From Ostreococcus lucimarinus (lineage: Eukaryota): 64,000 bases of DNA. Positions 3,747-11,963 of this stretch are shown one piece after another. The translations under genes and the position numbers were made by a program. Position 1 is the first letter of the stretch, and every line of letters starts with the position of its first letter. The stretch lies in assembly GCA_000092065.1 (NCBI GenBank), contig CP000589.1. One strand, 5' to 3'. The notes under the pieces were generated by a model that was not told the origin of the DNA, made no database searches, and was given only the letters and a program-made list of their open reading frames with translations.

Positions 3747-4742
3747 TCACGTCTCGACTTTAACTTTCCCGTTCCCGTGACGGCGCTGCCATGCGCAAAA
3801 TGATTGTAGGTTGCAATCTTTTGGTTTACGTCGGACGTCGCCACGGGCAAAAATCTCAAACGAATCCACTCCAAACTCGCCGATACCGTAAATTTTCAAC
3901 TCGGGCTCGAGTCCGACTTCAAACTCGCCAGTTTCCAATAGAAACTTCGTGGACACCTCCACGATCGTCCGCATCCTCCCGGGGAACAAGCCGAGGCGCT
4001 TGATGATTTCGAACACGTCCTGCGAATCCGCCGCGAGCGCCGCGCTCGGCGTCGGGAATTTCGCGAAAAAGTTTGATATGCATTCGTGTTTGAGAGCACC
4101 GCTCGCGACGCGCGACATCAGAGCACACGCGATCAGCAACTGCCACGCGTCATGCGCGTAATACTCTTGCAACAATTGCATGGGTGACGGCGGCGGAGGC
4201 GTTCCTAATCGAGACATCGTCCACGCCTTCCAATCGCTCACAGAACGCGCGGACGGTACGCTGTCTCCCCAACGCGCCACGGCGTCGCGGCGCCACGCCT
4301 CGTCTTTCGCTGACTTTTCGACAAAAGAATTGGCAACGTCCGCACGCGTGGCGAGTAACTTTTCTCGCGCTTCTGCGAGCCATTCTCTCGACGTCGCCAC
4401 GACGTCCTTTGCCAACTCGTCGTCGTCCAACTCGGCGTCGACGCTCGCGCGCTTCCTCGCCCGACCGTTTTCGTTTTCCTCGTCCTCATCGAGCAAGGCG
4501 TCGATGGTCGATCCATCGTACTCGGCCTTCACACCGACGACCCTGGACGACCGCCTCGTCGGCTCGCTCGGCTCTTCGCGCTTCACTCTTTTCCGTGACG
4601 TAGTGCTAATCTTCCGCGACGACATCTTGTTTCGAATGTCATCCGCGAGTGCGTTCACACCCAAGCGAGCCATGTACTCGCGGTTTCGCTGAACGTGCGC
4701 TAATCGCTGGCGCTCATACTCTGTGAGGTTCTCGTCCGGCAT
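3747..4742 (-). CDS. MBD4: HhH-GPD DNA glycosylase, MBD4-like glycosylase domain
   Basis: C-terminal region aligns by eye with the MBD4 glycosylase core: WQLLIACALMSR..LFPGRMRTIVEVSTKFL..LKIYGIGEFGVDSFEIF. N-terminus is acidic and low-complexity. Confidence 0.6.
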   Translation of the reverse strand: MPDENLTEYERQRLAHVQRNREYMARLGVNALADDIRNKMSSRKISTTSRKRVKREEPSEPTRRSSRVVGVKAEYDGSTIDALLDEDEENENGRARKRASVDAELDDDELAKDVVATSREWLAEAREKLLATRADVANSFVEKSAKDEAWRRDAVARWGDSVPSARSVSDWKAWTMSRLGTPPPPSPMQLLQEYYAHDAWQLLIACALMSRVASGALKHECISNFFAKFPTPSAALAADSQDVFEIIKRLGLFPGRMRTIVEVSTKFLLETGEFEVGLEPELKIYGIGEFGVDSFEIFARGDVRRKPKDCNLQSFCAWQRRHGNGKVKVET

Positions 4743-5902: not shown

Positions 5903-8900
5903 CTACTCCGCGCTCGCGGACGGAGACTGCTCTTTCTTCAATCTCTTGATCGCTTCGGCGATGTTGATGCCACCAAGCGCGGCGGTCAGCGTCTGGGCGG
6001 CGAGCGCGGCGGCGTCGACGTCCTTCTTCGACAGGAATGGAGGCGGCTCTGTCTGCCCGGCGATCGTCACGCTGGTGAAGATCTCGCCTTCGCTCAAGCC
6101 GAGACGATCGTAAACTTCTTGAAGATCGTCCACGGTCATCGCGTCGTACATGAGGGGTAAATCAGCGACGCACTGAATCTTCTTCAGCGGCGCTAAATCT
6201 GGAGTGTTGGTGCACTGCATCAAATCGGCCCAGTAGTTGTTCGTCTTCAAATCCATCTCATGACGACTCAACAGCGTTAAACGCGCGCGATCGACCTCGC
6301 GTTGGCTCACGCGCTGCATCTGAAATCCACGCAACACGCGCACGCCGGCGTTGAGAGCTTCATCAATTTTTTCCGGCGTCGACGTCACCAACAACCTGTA
6401 CGTCGTCGCGTCGTTGTTTTGTAATCCAAACGACATTGTAAAGTTGCAGTCGTACGTCAGACCCAACGCGTCGCGCACCGTTGTGAACAATCTACCACCG
6501 ATAACTTCTGCGAGCATCATCCCCGCGCAATACGTCGCCAAAGAATTCGCGCGTCGCGCAGACTGCTGTGCGAATGGGTTCCCCTTCGCCGACGCCACCT
6601 CGTTCACGGGATCGCGCAAGGCTGCAATCTGTTCCGGCGTGTACGCGTCTTGATTGACAAAGCTCGGAATTTCAGAGTACAGACTCGTCATCGGCGCCCA
6701 CATGGATGGCCCCGGTCCGGCGGCCACCGCGCACGCTCTTTCGTCGCTGTCCTTCAACCACAACCGCTGCGCGCGCACCGGATCATCCTTTGGCACCTCT
6801 TTCAATTTCAGCGGGGGCACTTGCGGCAACGGCGGCGCGGGCTTGGTCTGAATCGATCCCATAAACGCGAGAACCATTTCGTCGACTTCTTCGGGGATGA
6901 TGTCGCCGACGATGTTGAGTTCCAAAGCCCCGCTCGCGAATTGAGCTTCGATCATGTCTCGAACGCCATCCAGCGTCAGCGCCTGGAGTGCCTCCTTGTT
7001 CGGGTCCATGATTCTTCGGTCTTCGTAAATCACGGCGTTGACGGTGTCATGCGTGAGCAACTCGATGTTCTTGTTCGTGTTAATCTGAAACATGCGGTAA
7101 ATGTCCTTGACGCGCTCGAGCGCTTGCTCGTCCCACGTCGGCTTCGTCAGCGTGAGGTGCATGATCTCGAGAATAGTCCTCAAGCCTCCATCCGTGGCGA
7201 ACGCGGAATCCAAAAACATGTACTCGACCTCGGGCTCGACGTCGTACACGAGCAAGTGTTGCATCGTCAAGAGCTCGATTTGCTTGCGCGACCATTCGCC
7301 GACGTCGCCAGCCTCTTGCACGGTGCGCAAACCGACCGCCGACGAACCGATTCCGCCGGGCCCGATGTTCGGGCTCTCAACCGAACGACCACCCGGGACG
7401 ACGAGTCGTAAGAACGCGCTCCCAGGCTCGGCGTCGAGCACCTTGTAGTTGACGCGAATACCGTTACTCAGCGTGCGCTGGTACACGCCGGTCGGCTCGT
7501 GATACGTCGCCTCGGTAAACGTCGGCGCCGTTTGCTCGATGAGGGCGTTGATTTCGTCATCCGCAATCAACACCTCCGGCACAAAGATATCCTCGGGCTC
7601 TGTGATTTCACCGTAATCCGCCGCCAAAACTTGTTCTATGCGCTCGGGCGTGATATCGAACGGCACCGTCTCGCCGTCGACGTTCGTCATCGTCGCTGGG
7701 ACGCACGCGACGATGGCGGTGCACTTACCGCTGTTCGGTTTGCGATTGTTCTCCACGCCGTACTCACCGATAAAACCTAAAAGCTCATCGCACGCGCCGT
7801 TGCACGCCTCGAGCGTGATGTAATCAGACATGCGCACCAAGGCCTCGTGACCCGCGACCTGGTCCATGACGACGTGTCCGCAGGCGTCCTGCTCCATGAC
7901 AAAGTCGAGATTTTCGAGGCTCGGCACGCATCCCGCCTGCTGCGCGAGCTGTTCAGAATCTCTCAACATCGCCGCCTTAAAACGATCGAGCTCGCTCGGC
8001 GTCAATCCAAACTTTTGCAATCGTCGAGATTCCTCGACGGCGACTTGCAAGGCGAATTCGTACTCTCTCGGCTCGCACGTCACGGTGACGGTGCTGACGC
8101 AACACCCCTCTCTCGCGCTGTCGCTATGATCGAGTTCAATGCGTTTGTAATCCGCATTAGTTTCCGCGTATCTCGCCTGAATGCGGCTCTGCAACACCAA
8201 CAACACAATGCGCTGCAAAATCGTCCGGTGCAAGTCGCCCATCTTTTCGAGCGGCTTGACGGCCAATTTTGAAAATATGTTGAAACTCGCGTTGGACAAG
8301 TGTTCGTGCTGGAACATGGACACTTTACCCTCGGGGGCGACGAAAGGCAAGAACGGGTCGTCTTTGCCCGACGCCTTCGCCTCGTCGTTCGAGCGTTGAA
8401 TTTCGTCGAGCTCGTACGACGGCGCCCCGTACGCGTGCTTCACCGGAGGACGCACCGCGTGACGTTTGAGAGGAGACTCGGCTTCTTCCGCGCCTTCCGC
8501 GGGCGCCGCTTCGTCGAACGCGGCGGAAATCATACCCTCGACTTCGTCCACGGAGGCATCGAAGTCGCCCACGACGTAGAGCGTGGCGTTGGCTGGGAAA
8601 TACCAGCGCGCGTGAAAGTCTCGCACCGCCTGCGCCGGCCACGCTTCCACCTGATCGAGCTTACCGATCGGAAATCGCGTGCCCAAGAGGTTGTCCCAGT
8701 GCAAATGCTCTAGAAGCTGACAGTCCACTCTGTACTCGATCGTGTTCATCATTTGAGCCTCGGCGAGCACGGCTTTCTTCTCCTTCGCCACGCGAGTGTC
8801 CAAGAGTTGCGGCGCAAACGCGACGTCGTAGAGAATGTCCAGCACGTTGGGCGGCATGTAATGTCCATCCTTGTTCGTCGTCGGTGCGTGGATGTGGAAC

Positions 8901-9400
8901 ACGGTGTGGTGGAAATCCGTGTACGCGTTCCCTCGCGTACCGCTCCCGAGCCACTGATCTCGTTTTCGAGAACCCAAAAACGTGACGTGCTCGACGAGGT
9001 GCGCCAGCCCTTGCTCGTCTTCGCGTTCGTCCACGGACCCGACGTGCATCTCCAAGTGCGCCTCAAATCTCCCCTCGGGAACTTTGTTCGGTAAGATGAC
9101 GTACTTCAACCCATTCGCGAGCGTTCCTCGACGAATCTCTTCGTGCGGCGTCAAAGGCTCGTCCAGCATCGCCGTCGTCGCCGCGGGATCGGCGACGGAT
9201 GACAGCGTCTGCATCGCGCGATCCCATCGCCCCGGCCCACCGTTCGTCGACGACGCGTTCGCGCGCACGACGCGCGCGCACCGTCGCCCTCGCGTCGCCC
9301 GTTTCGTCGTCGTCGCCGTCCGTCCACGCCGACGATGCGGCGTCACGATTCCTCGCGCGTTCGCGCTCGCGCGCCCGCTCGCGGAGACGCGCGACGCCAT
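5903..9400 (-). CDS. SPP: Stromal processing peptidase-like M16 metallopeptidase (pitrilysin family) with N-terminal transit peptide
   Basis: Inverted zinc motif HLVEHVTFLGSRKR plus GTRGNAYTDFHHTVFHIH, matching plant SPP. About 1160 aa if started at the Met whose codon is at 9400-9398. The ORF track runs to 9874, but that extension reads through a simple repeat. Confidence 0.8.
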   Translation of the reverse strand: MASRVSASGRASANARGIVTPHRRRGRTATTTKRATRGRRCARVVRANASSTNGGPGRWDRAMQTLSSVADPAATTAMLDEPLTPHEEIRRGTLANGLKYVILPNKVPEGRFEAHLEMHVGSVDEREDEQGLAHLVEHVTFLGSRKRDQWLGSGTRGNAYTDFHHTVFHIHAPTTNKDGHYMPPNVLDILYDVAFAPQLLDTRVAKEKKAVLAEAQMMNTIEYRVDCQLLEHLHWDNLLGTRFPIGKLDQVEAWPAQAVRDFHARWYFPANATLYVVGDFDASVDEVEGMISAAFDEAAPAEGAEEAESPLKRHAVRPPVKHAYGAPSYELDEIQRSNDEAKASGKDDPFLPFVAPEGKVSMFQHEHLSNASFNIFSKLAVKPLEKMGDLHRTILQRIVLLVLQSRIQARYAETNADYKRIELDHSDSAREGCCVSTVTVTCEPREYEFALQVAVEESRRLQKFGLTPSELDRFKAAMLRDSEQLAQQAGCVPSLENLDFVMEQDACGHVVMDQVAGHEALVRMSDYITLEACNGACDELLGFIGEYGVENNRKPNSGKCTAIVACVPATMTNVDGETVPFDITPERIEQVLAADYGEITEPEDIFVPEVLIADDEINALIEQTAPTFTEATYHEPTGVYQRTLSNGIRVNYKVLDAEPGSAFLRLVVPGGRSVESPNIGPGGIGSSAVGLRTVQEAGDVGEWSRKQIELLTMQHLLVYDVEPEVEYMFLDSAFATDGGLRTILEIMHLTLTKPTWDEQALERVKDIYRMFQINTNKNIELLTHDTVNAVIYEDRRIMDPNKEALQALTLDGVRDMIEAQFASGALELNIVGDIIPEEVDEMVLAFMGSIQTKPAPPLPQVPPLKLKEVPKDDPVRAQRLWLKDSDERACAVAAGPGPSMWAPMTSLYSEIPSFVNQDAYTPEQIAALRDPVNEVASAKGNPFAQQSARRANSLATYCAGMMLAEVIGGRLFTTVRDALGLTYDCNFTMSFGLQNNDATTYRLLVTSTPEKIDEALNAGVRVLRGFQMQRVSQREVDRARLTLLSRHEMDLKTNNYWADLMQCTNTPDLAPLKKIQCVADLPLMYDAMTVDDLQEVYDRLGLSEGEIFTSVTIAGQTEPPPFLSKKDVDAAALAAQTLTAALGGINIAEAIKRLKKEQSPSASAE

Positions 9401-9589
9401 GTCGATCCGGCCGTGCGCGCGCGCGTTCGTCGGGTCGTCCGATCGTCGGGACCGTCGTCGTCGAAGCGCGCGCGACGCCGGCGCCGGGGTCACGCCGCGC
9501 ACTGCGGAAGGGCGGACGATTGATTCGACGCCGCCCCTGGACCGCTGGACCCTGGGCGGGCGCGCGCGCGGGCGCGAGGGGGCTTGGCG

Positions 9590-9665
9590 CGCGGTCGATC
9601 GATCGATCGATCGGTCGATCGTTCGATCGATCGATCGATCGATCGACGTCCGTCGATCGACGCGC
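9590..9665. repeat. Simple tandem repeat (CGAT/TCGA)n, encodes IDRS-like units in several frames
   Basis: Visible cgatcgatcgatcggtcgatcgttcgatcgatcg array in the 5' leader of the SPP-like gene. Confidence 0.85.
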
Positions 9666-9781
9666 GATGGTTCGCGAAAAAACGAAATCGCCCTCGGCGA
9701 CCGCGCGCCGGCACTTCGCGACGACGCGTGCGGCGAGCGATGTTTAGCGTGACGTGCGCGCCGTCGGCGACGACGACGACG

Positions 9782-9868
9782 TCGTGCGCCGTGAAGGCGA
9801 CGGCGCGATCGCAAAGGGTGCGAACGATCGATCGACGCGACGCCGACGCGCGCGAACGCGTTCGAACG
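9782..9868. repeat. 87-bp perfect direct repeat, copy A (partner at 10791-10877)
   Basis: tcgtgcgccgtgaaggcgacggcgcgatcgcaaagggtgcgaacgatcgatcgacgcgacgccgacgcgcgcgaacgcgttcgaacg is identical at both sites by eye. Confidence 0.85.
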
Positions 9869-9991
9869 CTTCATCTGCGCGCTCGAGGTGCGCGATTTCG
9901 TCGACGCGATGCGGCGCGCGCGGAATCATCGCGAAGGCGCGTGTCGCGGCGCGATCGACCGGGCTCGACGCGAGACTGACGACGCGCGCGC

Positions 9992-10790
9992 GTGCGATCG
10001 GTGATTACGAAGGTTTTACTCTGGTCCGTGGTTCTCGTGCCCGGGCGAACGTCGGGGGCGTGGAACGACGCGGCGAGAGCGTACTACACGCGCGAGACGG
10101 TGCGTCAACGTTCGACGCGTTACGACATGGTTGGATTCCAGCAAATGATGCAATCTCTCGCCGAACGCAATCGACGAATCGCGCGCGAGCGCATCGAGTC
10201 ACTCGTGAACGAGTTCAGAGTCGAGTCCGAGGCCGCGAGTCGTAAGTTCATCTCTCAAGCCGAACAAGATTACGAAACGTTCGCGCGCGCCGCCGGGCGC
10301 CAAGCCGCCGAGCGTTCGCGAGAGTCCAAAACCATCGCCTCTCGCGTCGAAGCCCTCACTCGCACTTGTTGGTTCGTGTATTCGTTGATTTCCGCGGTGG
10401 GAATTTTCTTTCTCGGTGCTGGGTTTAGCGTGATGCACGGGATGCACGGGTTGATGGACCCGATGCCGTCTGAAAACATACGTATTGGGATCGCGGTGTT
10501 GGGCGCGTCGGCGTTGTTGGAAGGATTTTCGTTAAAGGTGGCGTACGAGTCGTTGCGCGACAACGCCAAGGCGCAAGGAATGACGCTGAGGGAATTTATC
10601 AAATCTGGTAAAGATCCCACCAGCGTGGCCGTGCTCGCAGAAGATGCTGCCGCGGTGTTGGGTTGTGGCATCGCGGGTACGGCGCTCATCGCGTGCGAAG
10701 TGACGGGGAGTCCGATGTACGACGCGATGGGCTCGATTGCTGTCGGTGGCCTTCTTGGGGTGACGGCAATGTACCTCATCAACAGTAACC
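9992..10790 (+). CDS. Zinc transporter ZnT9/SLC30A9-like cation-diffusion-facilitator fragment (TM3-TM6 only). Probably a truncated gene or pseudogene, or an internal exon.
   Basis: YSLISAVGIFFLGAGFSV..GMTLREFIKSGKDPTSVAVLAEDAAAVLG..SPMYDAMGSIAVGGLLGVTAMYLINSN aligns closely to the human SLC30A9 TM3-TM6 region. No TM1-2 upstream in frame and no C-terminal domain downstream; the ORF runs into the 87-bp repeat. Confidence 0.5.
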
Positions 10791-10877
10791 TCGTGCGCCG
10801 TGAAGGCGACGGCGCGATCGCAAAGGGTGCGAACGATCGATCGACGCGACGCCGACGCGCGCGAACGCGTTCGAACG
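10791..10877. repeat. 87-bp perfect direct repeat, copy B
   Basis: Identical to 9782-9868. Confidence 0.85.
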
Positions 10878-11156
10878 GCGCCCGAGGACGACGACGGGGC
10901 GGTGTCCCCATCGGCGCCCCATCGGCGCCATCGGCGCGCCATCGAACGCGACGGATCGGGATGCGCGCGACGATGGGGACCGCGAGGCGTCGATGGCGAC
11001 GATGGCGTCGACACCGACGGTCGCGAGGGATCACGCGCGCGCCGACGAGGGGAGACGTCGCGTCGACCTCGACGGCGCGCGACGGCGCGATCGGGGCGTG
11101 TTATCCAAAGCGACGCGCGAGACTGACGACGCGGTTTTCTGGAATTCTTCGCGCAG

Positions 11157-11963
11157 GTGCACGCCGCAGCGCAGCGACGAAGCGTCGTCGTGAATGCGGG
11201 CACGGGTAAATTTATCGTCGGCGGGAACTGGAAGTGCAACGGCACGGCGGAGTCCGTCAAGTCGCTCGTGAAGGAACTAAACTCTGGGAAAATCGACGCC
11301 GACGTTGACGTCTACGTCGCGCCTCCGTTCGTCTTCATTCCTCGAGTGCAAAAGGAGCTCAACAACAAAAACTACGCCGTCGCCGCGCAGAACTGTTGGG
11401 TCTCCGCGGGTGGGGCGTTCACGGGTGAGGTGAGCGCGGATATGCTCGCCGACGCCGACATTCCGTGGGTGATTCTCGGGCACAGCGAACGCCGCGCGCT
11501 CTGCGGCGAGACGAACGAGTTCGTCGGGGAGAAGACCAAATATGCCTTGAGCAAGGGATTGAAGGTTGCTTTGTGCATCGGTGAGACGTTGGAACAGCGC
11601 GAAGCGGGCACGACTCTGGATATTTGCCGCGCGCAACTCAAGGCGGTGAACGACGTCGTGACCGCGGCGGACTGGGAAAACATCGTCATCGCGTACGAGC
11701 CCGTTTGGGCGATCGGTACCGGCAAGGTCGCGACGCCGGACCAAGCGCAAGAAGTGCACGCGGGCATTCGCAAGTGGTGCGCGGATAATATTTCTCCGGC
11801 GATTGCGTCGAAGATTCGCATTCAGTACGGCGGCAGCGTCAACGCCGGCAACTGCGACGAATTAGCTCAGAAAGAGGACATTGACGGCTTTCTCGTCGGC
11901 GGCGCGTCTTTGATCGGCGAGGCTTTCGTGACGATTTGCAACAGCGCCAAGCACTCTAAGTGA
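11157..11963 (+). CDS. TPI: Triosephosphate isomerase
   Basis: [27 protein letters not shown] and IQYGGSV signatures; 268 aa. Confidence 0.9.

What the first reader, a model, noticed from the sequence alone, without database searches (positions are those of the whole stretch)
9782..10877. ZnT9 (SLC30A9) gene fragment bracketed by perfect 87-bp direct repeats
A clean ORF encodes only TM3-TM6 of a ZnT9-type cation-diffusion facilitator, with very high similarity to metazoan SLC30A9 through the DPTSVAVLAEDAAAVLG block. It has no TM1-2 upstream. It has no cytoplasmic C-terminal domain downstream, reading into low-complexity sequence instead. The fragment is flanked by two identical 87-bp direct repeats, 1009 bp apart. 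The left copy lies in the 5' leader of the SPP-like gene. Possible explanations are a recently captured or duplicated gene piece, a recombination product between repeat copies, or an internal exon whose flanking introns derive from a repetitive (introner-like) element. I cannot distinguish these from sequence alone.
Basis: seen in the sequence. Interest (0 to 1): 0.5.

Follow-up and report, generated by a model that had tools for sequence, protein, structure and literature searches.

The report
Patchwork insertion of three gene fragments
The "ZnT9 fragment between two repeats" is a recent 922-bp insertion, seen only in the Ostreococcus lucimarinus CCE9901 reference genome, stitched from pieces of three unrelated genes and flanked by an 87-bp duplication of the insertion site; it is a scar of DNA-break repair, not a gene or a mobile element.

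Summary
An exact 87-bp direct repeat lies at 9782-9868 and 10791-10877, and a ZnT9 TM3-TM6 coding piece lies between the copies.

The window is O. lucimarinus CCE9901 chromosome 9. Ten independent, near-identical environmental contigs carry the 87 bp once and lack the 922 bp in between. The repeats are therefore a target-site duplication.

The insert is a mosaic of exact or near-exact copies of unlinked loci:
- 253 bp of genomic DNA, intron included, from a small prasinophyte-specific protein gene.
- 242 bp from the middle of a coiled-coil protein gene on another chromosome.
- A 7-nt filler.
- 420 bp from the middle of an intact, intronless ZnT9 gene found elsewhere.

All four junctions are blunt, with no microhomology. 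The insert has no terminal inverted repeats and no poly(A). All pieces are sense-oriented and in one reading frame, which makes the "clean ORF".

The most likely cause is end-joining capture of DNA fragments at a staggered break in the SPP-TPI intergenic region. Rivals are replicative template switching, reverse transcription, and a finishing artefact of the reference. The introner/exon reading is refuted.

It is a new member of a known kind, of moderate-to-low interest.

The parts
9782..9868 (.). Left copy of the 87-bp target-site duplication
   Evidence: Exact repeat. Present once in the empty allele of L003-L012.
9869..10121 (+). Segment S1 (253 bp): genomic copy of part of a small 'prasinophyte-specific protein' gene. 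It holds the last 19 nt of exon 1 (9869-9887), intron 1 (9888-10012), exon 2 (10013-10099) and the first 22 nt of intron 2 (10100-10121).
   Evidence: 99.6% identical (one 1-nt gap) to genomic contig L063 546-799. Spliced contigs L064-L066 join 9869-9889 directly to 10011-10102. Proteins P0248-P0250 and the Micromonas commoda 'prasinophyte-specific protein' P0263 read ...FICALE|VLLWSVVLVPG...YYTRET|VNLS.... The orthologue in L061 differs almost only at synonymous sites in exon 2.
10122..10363 (+). Segment S2 (242 bp): internal coding piece (residues 160-239 of 323) of a coiled-coil protein gene (P0008) that lies on another chromosome
   Evidence: 100% DNA identity to L001 3731-3972. Neighbours of that gene fall in the clusters of O. 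lucimarinus CCE9901 proteins on a 543,086-bp chromosome, e.g. ABO99071.1.
10364..10370 (.). 7-nt filler ACTTGTT, matching neither donor
   Evidence: Junction comparison with both donor sequences.
10371..10790 (+). Segment S3 (420 bp): internal coding piece of the ZnT9/SLC30A9-type CDF transporter gene (residues 221-359 of 486, TM3-TM6)
   Evidence: 100% DNA identity to L014 3999-4418, where the gene is a complete intronless ORF with a full Cation_efflux domain.
10791..10877 (.). Right copy of the 87-bp target-site duplication
9992..11209 (+). Chimeric open reading frame (405 codons) made because exon 2 of S1, S2 and S3 all sit in the same frame. It runs on through the right repeat into TPI upstream sequence. 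There is no evidence that it is a gene.
   Evidence: Frame arithmetic. The exact product is not on record in any public assembly.
5903..9406 (-). Flanking gene: stromal-processing-peptidase-like M16 peptidase. The start at 9406 is inferred.
   Evidence: Pfam Peptidase_M16 plus M16_C. Synteny in L003-L012.
10993..11963 (+). Flanking gene: triosephosphate isomerase. The start codon at 10993 and a 59-nt 5' intron at 11098-11156 are inferred.
   Evidence: Pfam TIM. Intron inferred from the donor/acceptor and branch-site scan.

Best explanation
This is a recent insertion found only in the CCE9901 reference, made when a chromosomal break in the SPP-TPI intergenic region was repaired by end joining.

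The proposed steps are:
1. The break had staggered ends, with nicks 87 nt apart on the two strands.
2. Both overhangs were filled in, so the 87 bp now occurs on each side.
3. Three loose double-stranded pieces of the cell's own nuclear DNA (253, 242 and 420 bp, from three unlinked genes) were ligated blunt-end to each other and to the two chromosome ends. Seven extra nucleotides were added at one joint.
4. The donor genes stay intact, so this is copy-and-paste.

The ZnT9 piece is a passive passenger and not a working transporter.

Shown: the empty site, the duplication of the target, the three donors, the retained intron, and the blunt junctions. Inferred: the staggered break, the fill-in, and the end-joining enzymes.
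For: - **Empty site.** All 10 independent O. lucimarinus-type contigs carry the 87 bp once and a spacer 1009 bp shorter. The best of them is 99.8-99.9% identical and collinear with the window over 22 kb. The insert is the only large difference.
- **Donors.** S1 is 99.6% identical to L063, S2 is 100% identical to L001, and S3 is 100% identical to L014. Identity stops sharply at the segment ends.
- **Template type.** S1 keeps intron 1 and part of intron 2, whereas spliced contigs and proteins skip them. The template was DNA or unspliced RNA, not mature mRNA.
- **Junctions.** All four have 0 nt of microhomology, and one has a 7-nt filler. This fits the 0-4 nt range reported for NHEJ capture.
- **Not a mobile element.** The insert has no terminal inverted repeats, no poly(A), and no other copies in the window.
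- **Age.** The two repeat copies are identical (87/87).
- **Precedent in yeast, humans and plants.** Several genomic fragments can be captured at one break by NHEJ without loss of the donor (PMC11724301).
- **Precedent in a green alga.** Chlamydomonas joins 'junk fragments' of genomic DNA into insertion sites. Most are under 300 bp, some reach 1 kb, and sometimes there are several. Target duplications occur alongside (10.1101/464859).
Against: - An 87-bp target duplication is much longer than those reported with end-joining insertions in Chlamydomonas, which are mostly under 10 bp and reach 30 bp. The staggered break is assumed, not shown.
- All three pieces are in sense orientation and in one reading frame. 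Under random capture this has roughly a 1 in 36 chance and is unexplained.
- The insertion is known only from the reference assembly. No second assembly or read set confirms it.
- The donors could be inspected only in near-identical environmental genotypes, not in CCE9901 itself.
Confidence: 0.62

Rival explanations
1. Replicative template switching (FoSTeS/MMBIR). A nascent strand left the template at 9868 and copied 253, 242 and 420 nt from three other loci in turn. It then re-entered the original template 87 nt behind the exit point, which duplicated the 87 bp.
For: This explains the 87-bp duplication and the chain of several templates in one process, and the donors stay intact. Templated insertions with several donors are attributed to MMBIR in the literature (PMC11724301).
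Against: MMBIR starts each switch at microhomology. Here all four junctions have 0 nt, and one has a 7-nt filler that matches neither donor.
Confidence: 0.14
2. Artefact of the 2007 Sanger assembly or finishing of CCE9901, or of a chimeric clone. Small fragments would have been co-ligated and built into the consensus, so the insertion does not exist in the alga.
For: It is absent from all 10 related contigs and from every metagenome hit to the ZnT9 piece. The chimeric ORF is not on record in any other assembly. The blunt joints and 240-420-bp pieces resemble ligation of sheared DNA. The region is 70-77% G+C and lies next to a (CGAT)n palindrome, so it would be hard to sequence. The region is also duplicated on chromosome 21, which complicates assembly.
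Against: A random co-ligation would not return to the same locus with an exact 87-bp overlap and perfect collinearity on both sides. It would need five fragments in one clone. The genome was finished, not draft.
Confidence: 0.12
3. Reverse-transcriptase-mediated insertion. Target-primed reverse transcription with template jumps between three RNAs would produce a same-sense chimera with a target-site duplication.
For: All three pieces are in sense orientation relative to their genes, and a target-site duplication is present.
Against: S1 contains a full intron and part of a second. All the pieces are internal, none reaches a 3' end, and there is no poly(A). No reverse transcriptase or LINE was seen nearby.
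Confidence: 0.07
4. The ZnT9 ORF is an internal exon of a multi-exon CDF gene, and the 87-bp repeats are introner-like intronic elements.
For: None beyond the clean ORF.
Against: The native ZnT9 gene is a single uninterrupted ORF that reads through both fragment ends. The empty allele exists. The upstream codons belong to two other genes. The element has no further copies in the window.
Confidence: 0.01

Closest known systems
Capture of extrachromosomal genomic DNA fragments at double-strand breaks by non-homologous end joining ('distant templated insertions'; yeast dna2/rad27/RPA mutants, human and plant examples)
   Same: Copy-and-paste of 0.1-1 kb pieces from distant loci. Several pieces can enter one break. 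Junction microhomology is 0-4 nt and donors stay intact (PMC11724301).
   Different: Those events are described at blunt or short-overhang breaks without long target duplications. Here the flank is duplicated over 87 bp. Here the event is spontaneous, fixed in a culture strain, and has three same-sense, in-frame pieces.
'Junk fragments' at cassette insertion sites in Chlamydomonas reinhardtii
   Same: A green alga. Genomic fragments mostly under 300 bp, up to 1 kb and sometimes several, are ligated into an insertion site. Small target duplications or deletions are attributed to end joining (10.1101/464859).
   Different: Those accompany electroporated cassettes and are thought to come from lysed cells. 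Their target duplications reach 30 bp at most. Here there is no cassette and the duplication is 87 bp.
FoSTeS/MMBIR complex rearrangements
   Same: Chains of segments copied from several templates, and duplication of flanking sequence on return to the original template.
   Different: MMBIR junctions normally show microhomology. None is present here.
Gene-fragment-capturing transposons (Pack-MULEs, Helitrons) and chimeric retrocopies
   Same: Mosaics of fragments from several genes, often in the same orientation, that can create chimeric ORFs.
   Different: There are no terminal inverted repeats, Helitron ends, poly(A) or element backbone, and only a single copy. The flanking repeats are the target itself. 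An intron is retained.

Membership tests
Functional ZnT9/SLC30A9-type cation diffusion facilitator gene | Complete six-helix Cation_efflux membrane domain | tested here: not met
   The window ORF covers only profile positions 68-194 of 198, equal to residues 221-359 of the 486-aa native protein. TM1-2 are absent.
Functional ZnT9/SLC30A9-type cation diffusion facilitator gene | Cytoplasmic C-terminal domain after TM6 | tested here: not met
   Identity to the native gene stops at ...MYLINSN (10790). The native gene continues RLLLLGRSLG...IHYVDIETN.
Captured/templated insertion at a DNA break (end-joining type) | An allele without the insert exists, with the flanks otherwise collinear | tested here: met
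   10 of 10 contigs are empty. Over 22 kb the flanks are 99.8-99.9% identical and the insert is the only large difference.
Captured/templated insertion at a DNA break (end-joining type) | Inserted pieces are copies of sequences that remain intact elsewhere in the genome | tested here: met
   The donors are intact in L063, L001 and L014 at 99.6-100% identity. This was checked in near-identical wild genotypes, not in CCE9901 itself.
Captured/templated insertion at a DNA break (end-joining type) | Junctions with 0-4 nt microhomology, sometimes with small fillers | tested here: met
   There is 0 nt at all four junctions and a 7-nt filler at one.
Captured/templated insertion at a DNA break (end-joining type) | Dependence on Ku/Lig4 end-joining enzymes | not testable with these tools
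   This needs genetics.
MMBIR/FoSTeS template-switch rearrangement | Microhomology at the switch points | tested here: not met
Transposable element insertion (TIR element, Helitron, LINE/retrocopy) | Element termini (terminal inverted repeats, Helitron ends or poly(A)) and multiple copies | tested here: not met
   No terminal inverted repeats. No poly(A) in the sequence. The repeat and the insert are single-copy in the window. The content is three unique gene pieces.
Processed retrocopy | Introns removed | tested here: not met
   S1 retains intron 1 (125 nt) and 22 nt of intron 2, whereas spliced contigs lack them.
Introner / exon flanked by repetitive introns | The fragment is an exon of a split gene and the repeats recur as intronic elements | tested here: not met
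   The native ZnT9 is intronless and contiguous across both fragment ends. The 87 bp occurs once in the empty alleles.

The most novel reading that the evidence does not exclude
The insertion may be more than a passive scar. In one step it fused three sense-oriented, in-frame gene pieces into a 361-405-codon ORF: a signal/TM-like exon, a coiled coil, and four CDF helices. The ORF sits beside a bidirectional promoter. That would be a natural case of exon shuffling by break repair that may be giving birth to a chimeric gene. It might also be a by-product of the same episode of genome instability that duplicated parts of chromosomes 9 and 13 to make the O. lucimarinus-specific chromosome 21. The insertion lies inside the duplicated chromosome 9 segment.
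Probability: 0.08. Interest if true: 0.6.

Novelty: new member of a known kind. Interest (0 to 1): 0.3.

Why it matters
- **Annotation.** It removes a false lead: there is no truncated ZnT9 gene and no introner family here. The real, intact O. lucimarinus ZnT9 gene is elsewhere.
- **Genome biology.** It is a clean natural example, with all donors and the empty site in hand, of multi-fragment DNA capture at a break in one of the most compact eukaryotic genomes. Its target duplication is unusually long. Cases like this show how break repair can create new chimeric reading frames.
- **Reference quality.** It flags a spot in a widely used reference genome that differs from all sampled wild genotypes and should be verified.

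Tried and rejected
- Exact-pattern scans of genome contigs and viral contigs with a 32-mer from S1 found nothing. This was expected, because those collections hold no algal genomes.
- Rfam on the locus and on the orthologous region gave only spurious miRNA-like hits to the (CGAT)n palindrome. Nothing matched S1, so its conserved block is not a known RNA gene.
- The donor of S1 was found indirectly. A six-frame concatenated protein query gave one weak hit, P0246. That led to L061 and to the synonymous-substitution pattern, then to a predicted spliced protein that was confirmed by a search.
- Exact look-ups of the chimeric ORF (ATG-start, GTG-start, and M-substituted) found no record in any public assembly.
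- The attempt to fetch the NCBI chromosome 9 and 21 copies through the 296-aa CAF16 product returned only two short contigs. Whether the chromosome 21 paralogue carries the insert is therefore unknown.
- The O. lucimarinus genome paper (tried as PMC1863510) is not held.
- The 18-nt match 9969-9986 = 11116-11133 was considered as a locally templated patch. It was rejected in favour of a shared intron branch-site motif (GAGACTGACGACG, about 30 nt before the acceptor), because S1 is one contiguous copy of its donor.
- The idea that the empty alleles are deletions between pre-existing repeats was rejected. The insert consists of identical copies of other genes, and even the more diverged strains (93-97% identity in the intergenic DNA 5' of the site, window 9000-9868) have the single copy.

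Full report
**1. The observation**

The two 87-bp copies at 9782-9868 and 10791-10877 are identical at every base. They lie 1009 bp apart and are the only copies in the window. ORF 9992-11209 (+) matches the Pfam Cation_efflux model only over profile positions 68-194 of 198.

**2. The organism and its neighbours**

Exact-sequence look-ups of nine of ten long window ORFs found them in the protein collection. Five are identical to annotated proteins of Ostreococcus lucimarinus CCE9901 on a 670,853-bp chromosome, such as ABO97964.1 and ABO97965.1. The cluster of a sixth holds the annotated CCE9901 protein ABO97967.1, made from the same ORF with a downstream start.

The locus lies between two divergently transcribed genes. 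One is an M16 stromal-processing-peptidase-like gene on the minus strand. The other is triosephosphate isomerase on the plus strand.

**3. The ORF is a chimera**

A protein search with the ORF returned two disjoint sets of hits.
- CDF/ZnT9 proteins matched the C-terminal 62% of the query.
- An unrelated 323-aa coiled-coil protein, P0008, matched the first 35% at 100% identity.

At the DNA level, 10122-10363 is 100% identical to the middle of the P0008 gene on contig L001. The neighbours of that gene belong to clusters of CCE9901 proteins on a different, 543,086-bp chromosome.

**4. The empty site**

I looked up the neighbouring CAF16-like ABC protein and obtained ten independent environmental or culture contigs covering SPP-TPI.
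- In all ten, the SPP-TPI spacer is about 1 kb shorter.
- Window 9000-9868 and window 10788-11400 align to overlapping stretches of these contigs that share the 87 bp.
- The best contig, L011, is 99.8-99.9% identical and collinear with the window over 22 kb. The only large difference is 922 bp of extra DNA plus a second copy of the 87 bp.

The repeats are therefore the duplicated target of an insertion spanning 9869-10790.

**5. The donors**

*S3, the ZnT9 piece.* One scan of metagenome contigs with the ZnT9 piece found three loci with 100% protein identity. L014 is 100% identical in DNA over exactly 10371-10790. It carries a complete, uninterrupted ZnT9 ORF with a full Cation_efflux domain, profile positions 3-198 of 198. 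The fragment equals residues 221-359 of 486 and contains TM3 to TM6.

*S1, the remaining 253 bp (9869-10121).* This had no match at first.
- A six-frame protein query gave one weak hit, which led to an orthologous region in a related species, L061.
- In that region a 98-bp block differs almost only at synonymous positions of one frame. It is bounded by AG| and |GTGCGT.
- A protein predicted by splicing three exons was confirmed by a search. Complete spliced proteins, including an MMETSP transcript ORF and the Micromonas commoda 'prasinophyte-specific protein', read straight across both predicted exon joints.
- Genomic contig L063 matches 9869-10121 at 99.6%, with one 1-nt gap. Spliced contigs L064-L066 join 9869-9889 directly to 10011-10102.

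So S1 is a genomic copy that holds the end of exon 1, all of intron 1, exon 2 and the start of intron 2.

**6. The junctions**

I compared the window, the empty site and each donor at all four joints. None shows any shared base. Seven nucleotides (ACTTGTT, 10364-10370) between S2 and S3 match neither donor.

The insert has no terminal inverted repeats, no poly(A), and no known RNA family. S1 exon 2, S2 and S3 are all in sense orientation and in the same frame. This is why one long ORF appears. The chance of that under random joining is about 1 in 36.

**7. Interpretation**

The anatomy is settled: a very recent mosaic insertion with an 87-bp target-site duplication. Its youth shows in the identical repeat copies and in donors that are 99.6-100% identical.

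The retained intron excludes a processed-mRNA origin. Blunt joints plus a small filler are what end joining produces. Capture of several genomic fragments at one break by NHEJ, without loss of the donors, is documented in yeast, humans and plants (PMC11724301). A green alga, Chlamydomonas, routinely ligates 'junk fragments' of similar size into insertion sites (10.1101/464859).

The 87-bp duplication is most simply explained by a staggered break whose overhangs were filled in before ligation. That step is inferred. The duplication is also longer than those reported in these systems.

Replicative template switching would explain the duplication elegantly, but it is not supported by the junctions. 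A reverse-transcriptase route is disfavoured by the intron, by the internal position of all the pieces and by the missing poly(A).

An artefact of the reference cannot be excluded, because no independent data for CCE9901 could be reached. A chance co-ligation that re-enters the same locus with an exact 87-bp overlap is unlikely, though.

**8. Context**

Several window proteins carry a second accession (ABP01xxx). This fits the published statement that O. lucimarinus chromosome 21 is a fusion of duplicated regions of chromosomes 9 and 13 (PMC2367439). The insertion therefore lies in a segment that has a second copy. That could buffer any effect on the SPP and TPI promoters, and it complicates assembly. 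Whether the chromosome 21 copy has the insert is untested.

**9. Verdict**

The finding is real and now explained. It is not a truncated transporter gene, not an exon and not a repeat family. It is a break-repair scar that copied pieces of three genes into an intergenic region of the reference strain. It is a new member of a known kind, of modest interest. The untested possibility that the in-frame chimera is expressed, or is linked to the origin of chromosome 21, would raise that interest.

Noticed in passing
window 4915-28412 (at least): Several window proteins have two CCE9901 accessions (ABO97xxx and ABP01xxx). This fits the published duplication of part of chromosome 9 onto the species-specific chromosome 21. 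HhH-GPD (3747-4742) has only one accession, so one duplication boundary may lie near 4.7-4.9 kb.
   Followed up: partly
window 9584-9660: A (CGAT)n palindromic microsatellite in the SPP-TPI spacer. Its length and sequence vary among the wild contigs, and it gives spurious miRNA-family hits in Rfam.
   Followed up: partly
window 9969-9986 and 11116-11133; L061 6612-6630 and 6880-6897: A shared motif GAGACTGACGACG lies about 30 nt upstream of cgcag|G acceptors. It looks like an extended intron branch-site consensus in Ostreococcus. It implies an unannotated 59-nt 5' intron in TPI (11098-11156) joining a start codon at 10993 to the TIM domain ORF.
   Followed up: partly
window 5903-9874 (-): The minus-strand SPP reading frame stays open about 470 nt upstream of the probable start codon (9406) and runs through the left repeat copy. 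This is a G+C-rich spurious extension, not a 5' coding region.
   Followed up: no
P0038 / P0007 and their shared 6410-bp JGI contig (not fetched): In another Ostreococcus lineage the ZnT9 gene is called as two ORFs that split at ...KVA|Y.... This suggests an intron there, whereas the O. lucimarinus-type gene (L014) is intronless.
   Followed up: no
window 10105-10107 vs L063/L062: The S1 copy has a 1-nt deletion (ACGTTCCGACG in both wild donors, ACGTTCGACG in the window) inside the intron 2 part. It is either a CCE9901 polymorphism or the only mutation since, or during, the insertion.
   Followed up: no
L061 6001-6894; P0246, P0253, P0254: Prokaryote-style gene calls on Ostreococcus metagenome contigs read through introns and intergenic DNA. 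Many database 'proteins' for these algae are frame-mixed artefacts, although they proved useful for locating non-coding donors.
   Followed up: yes
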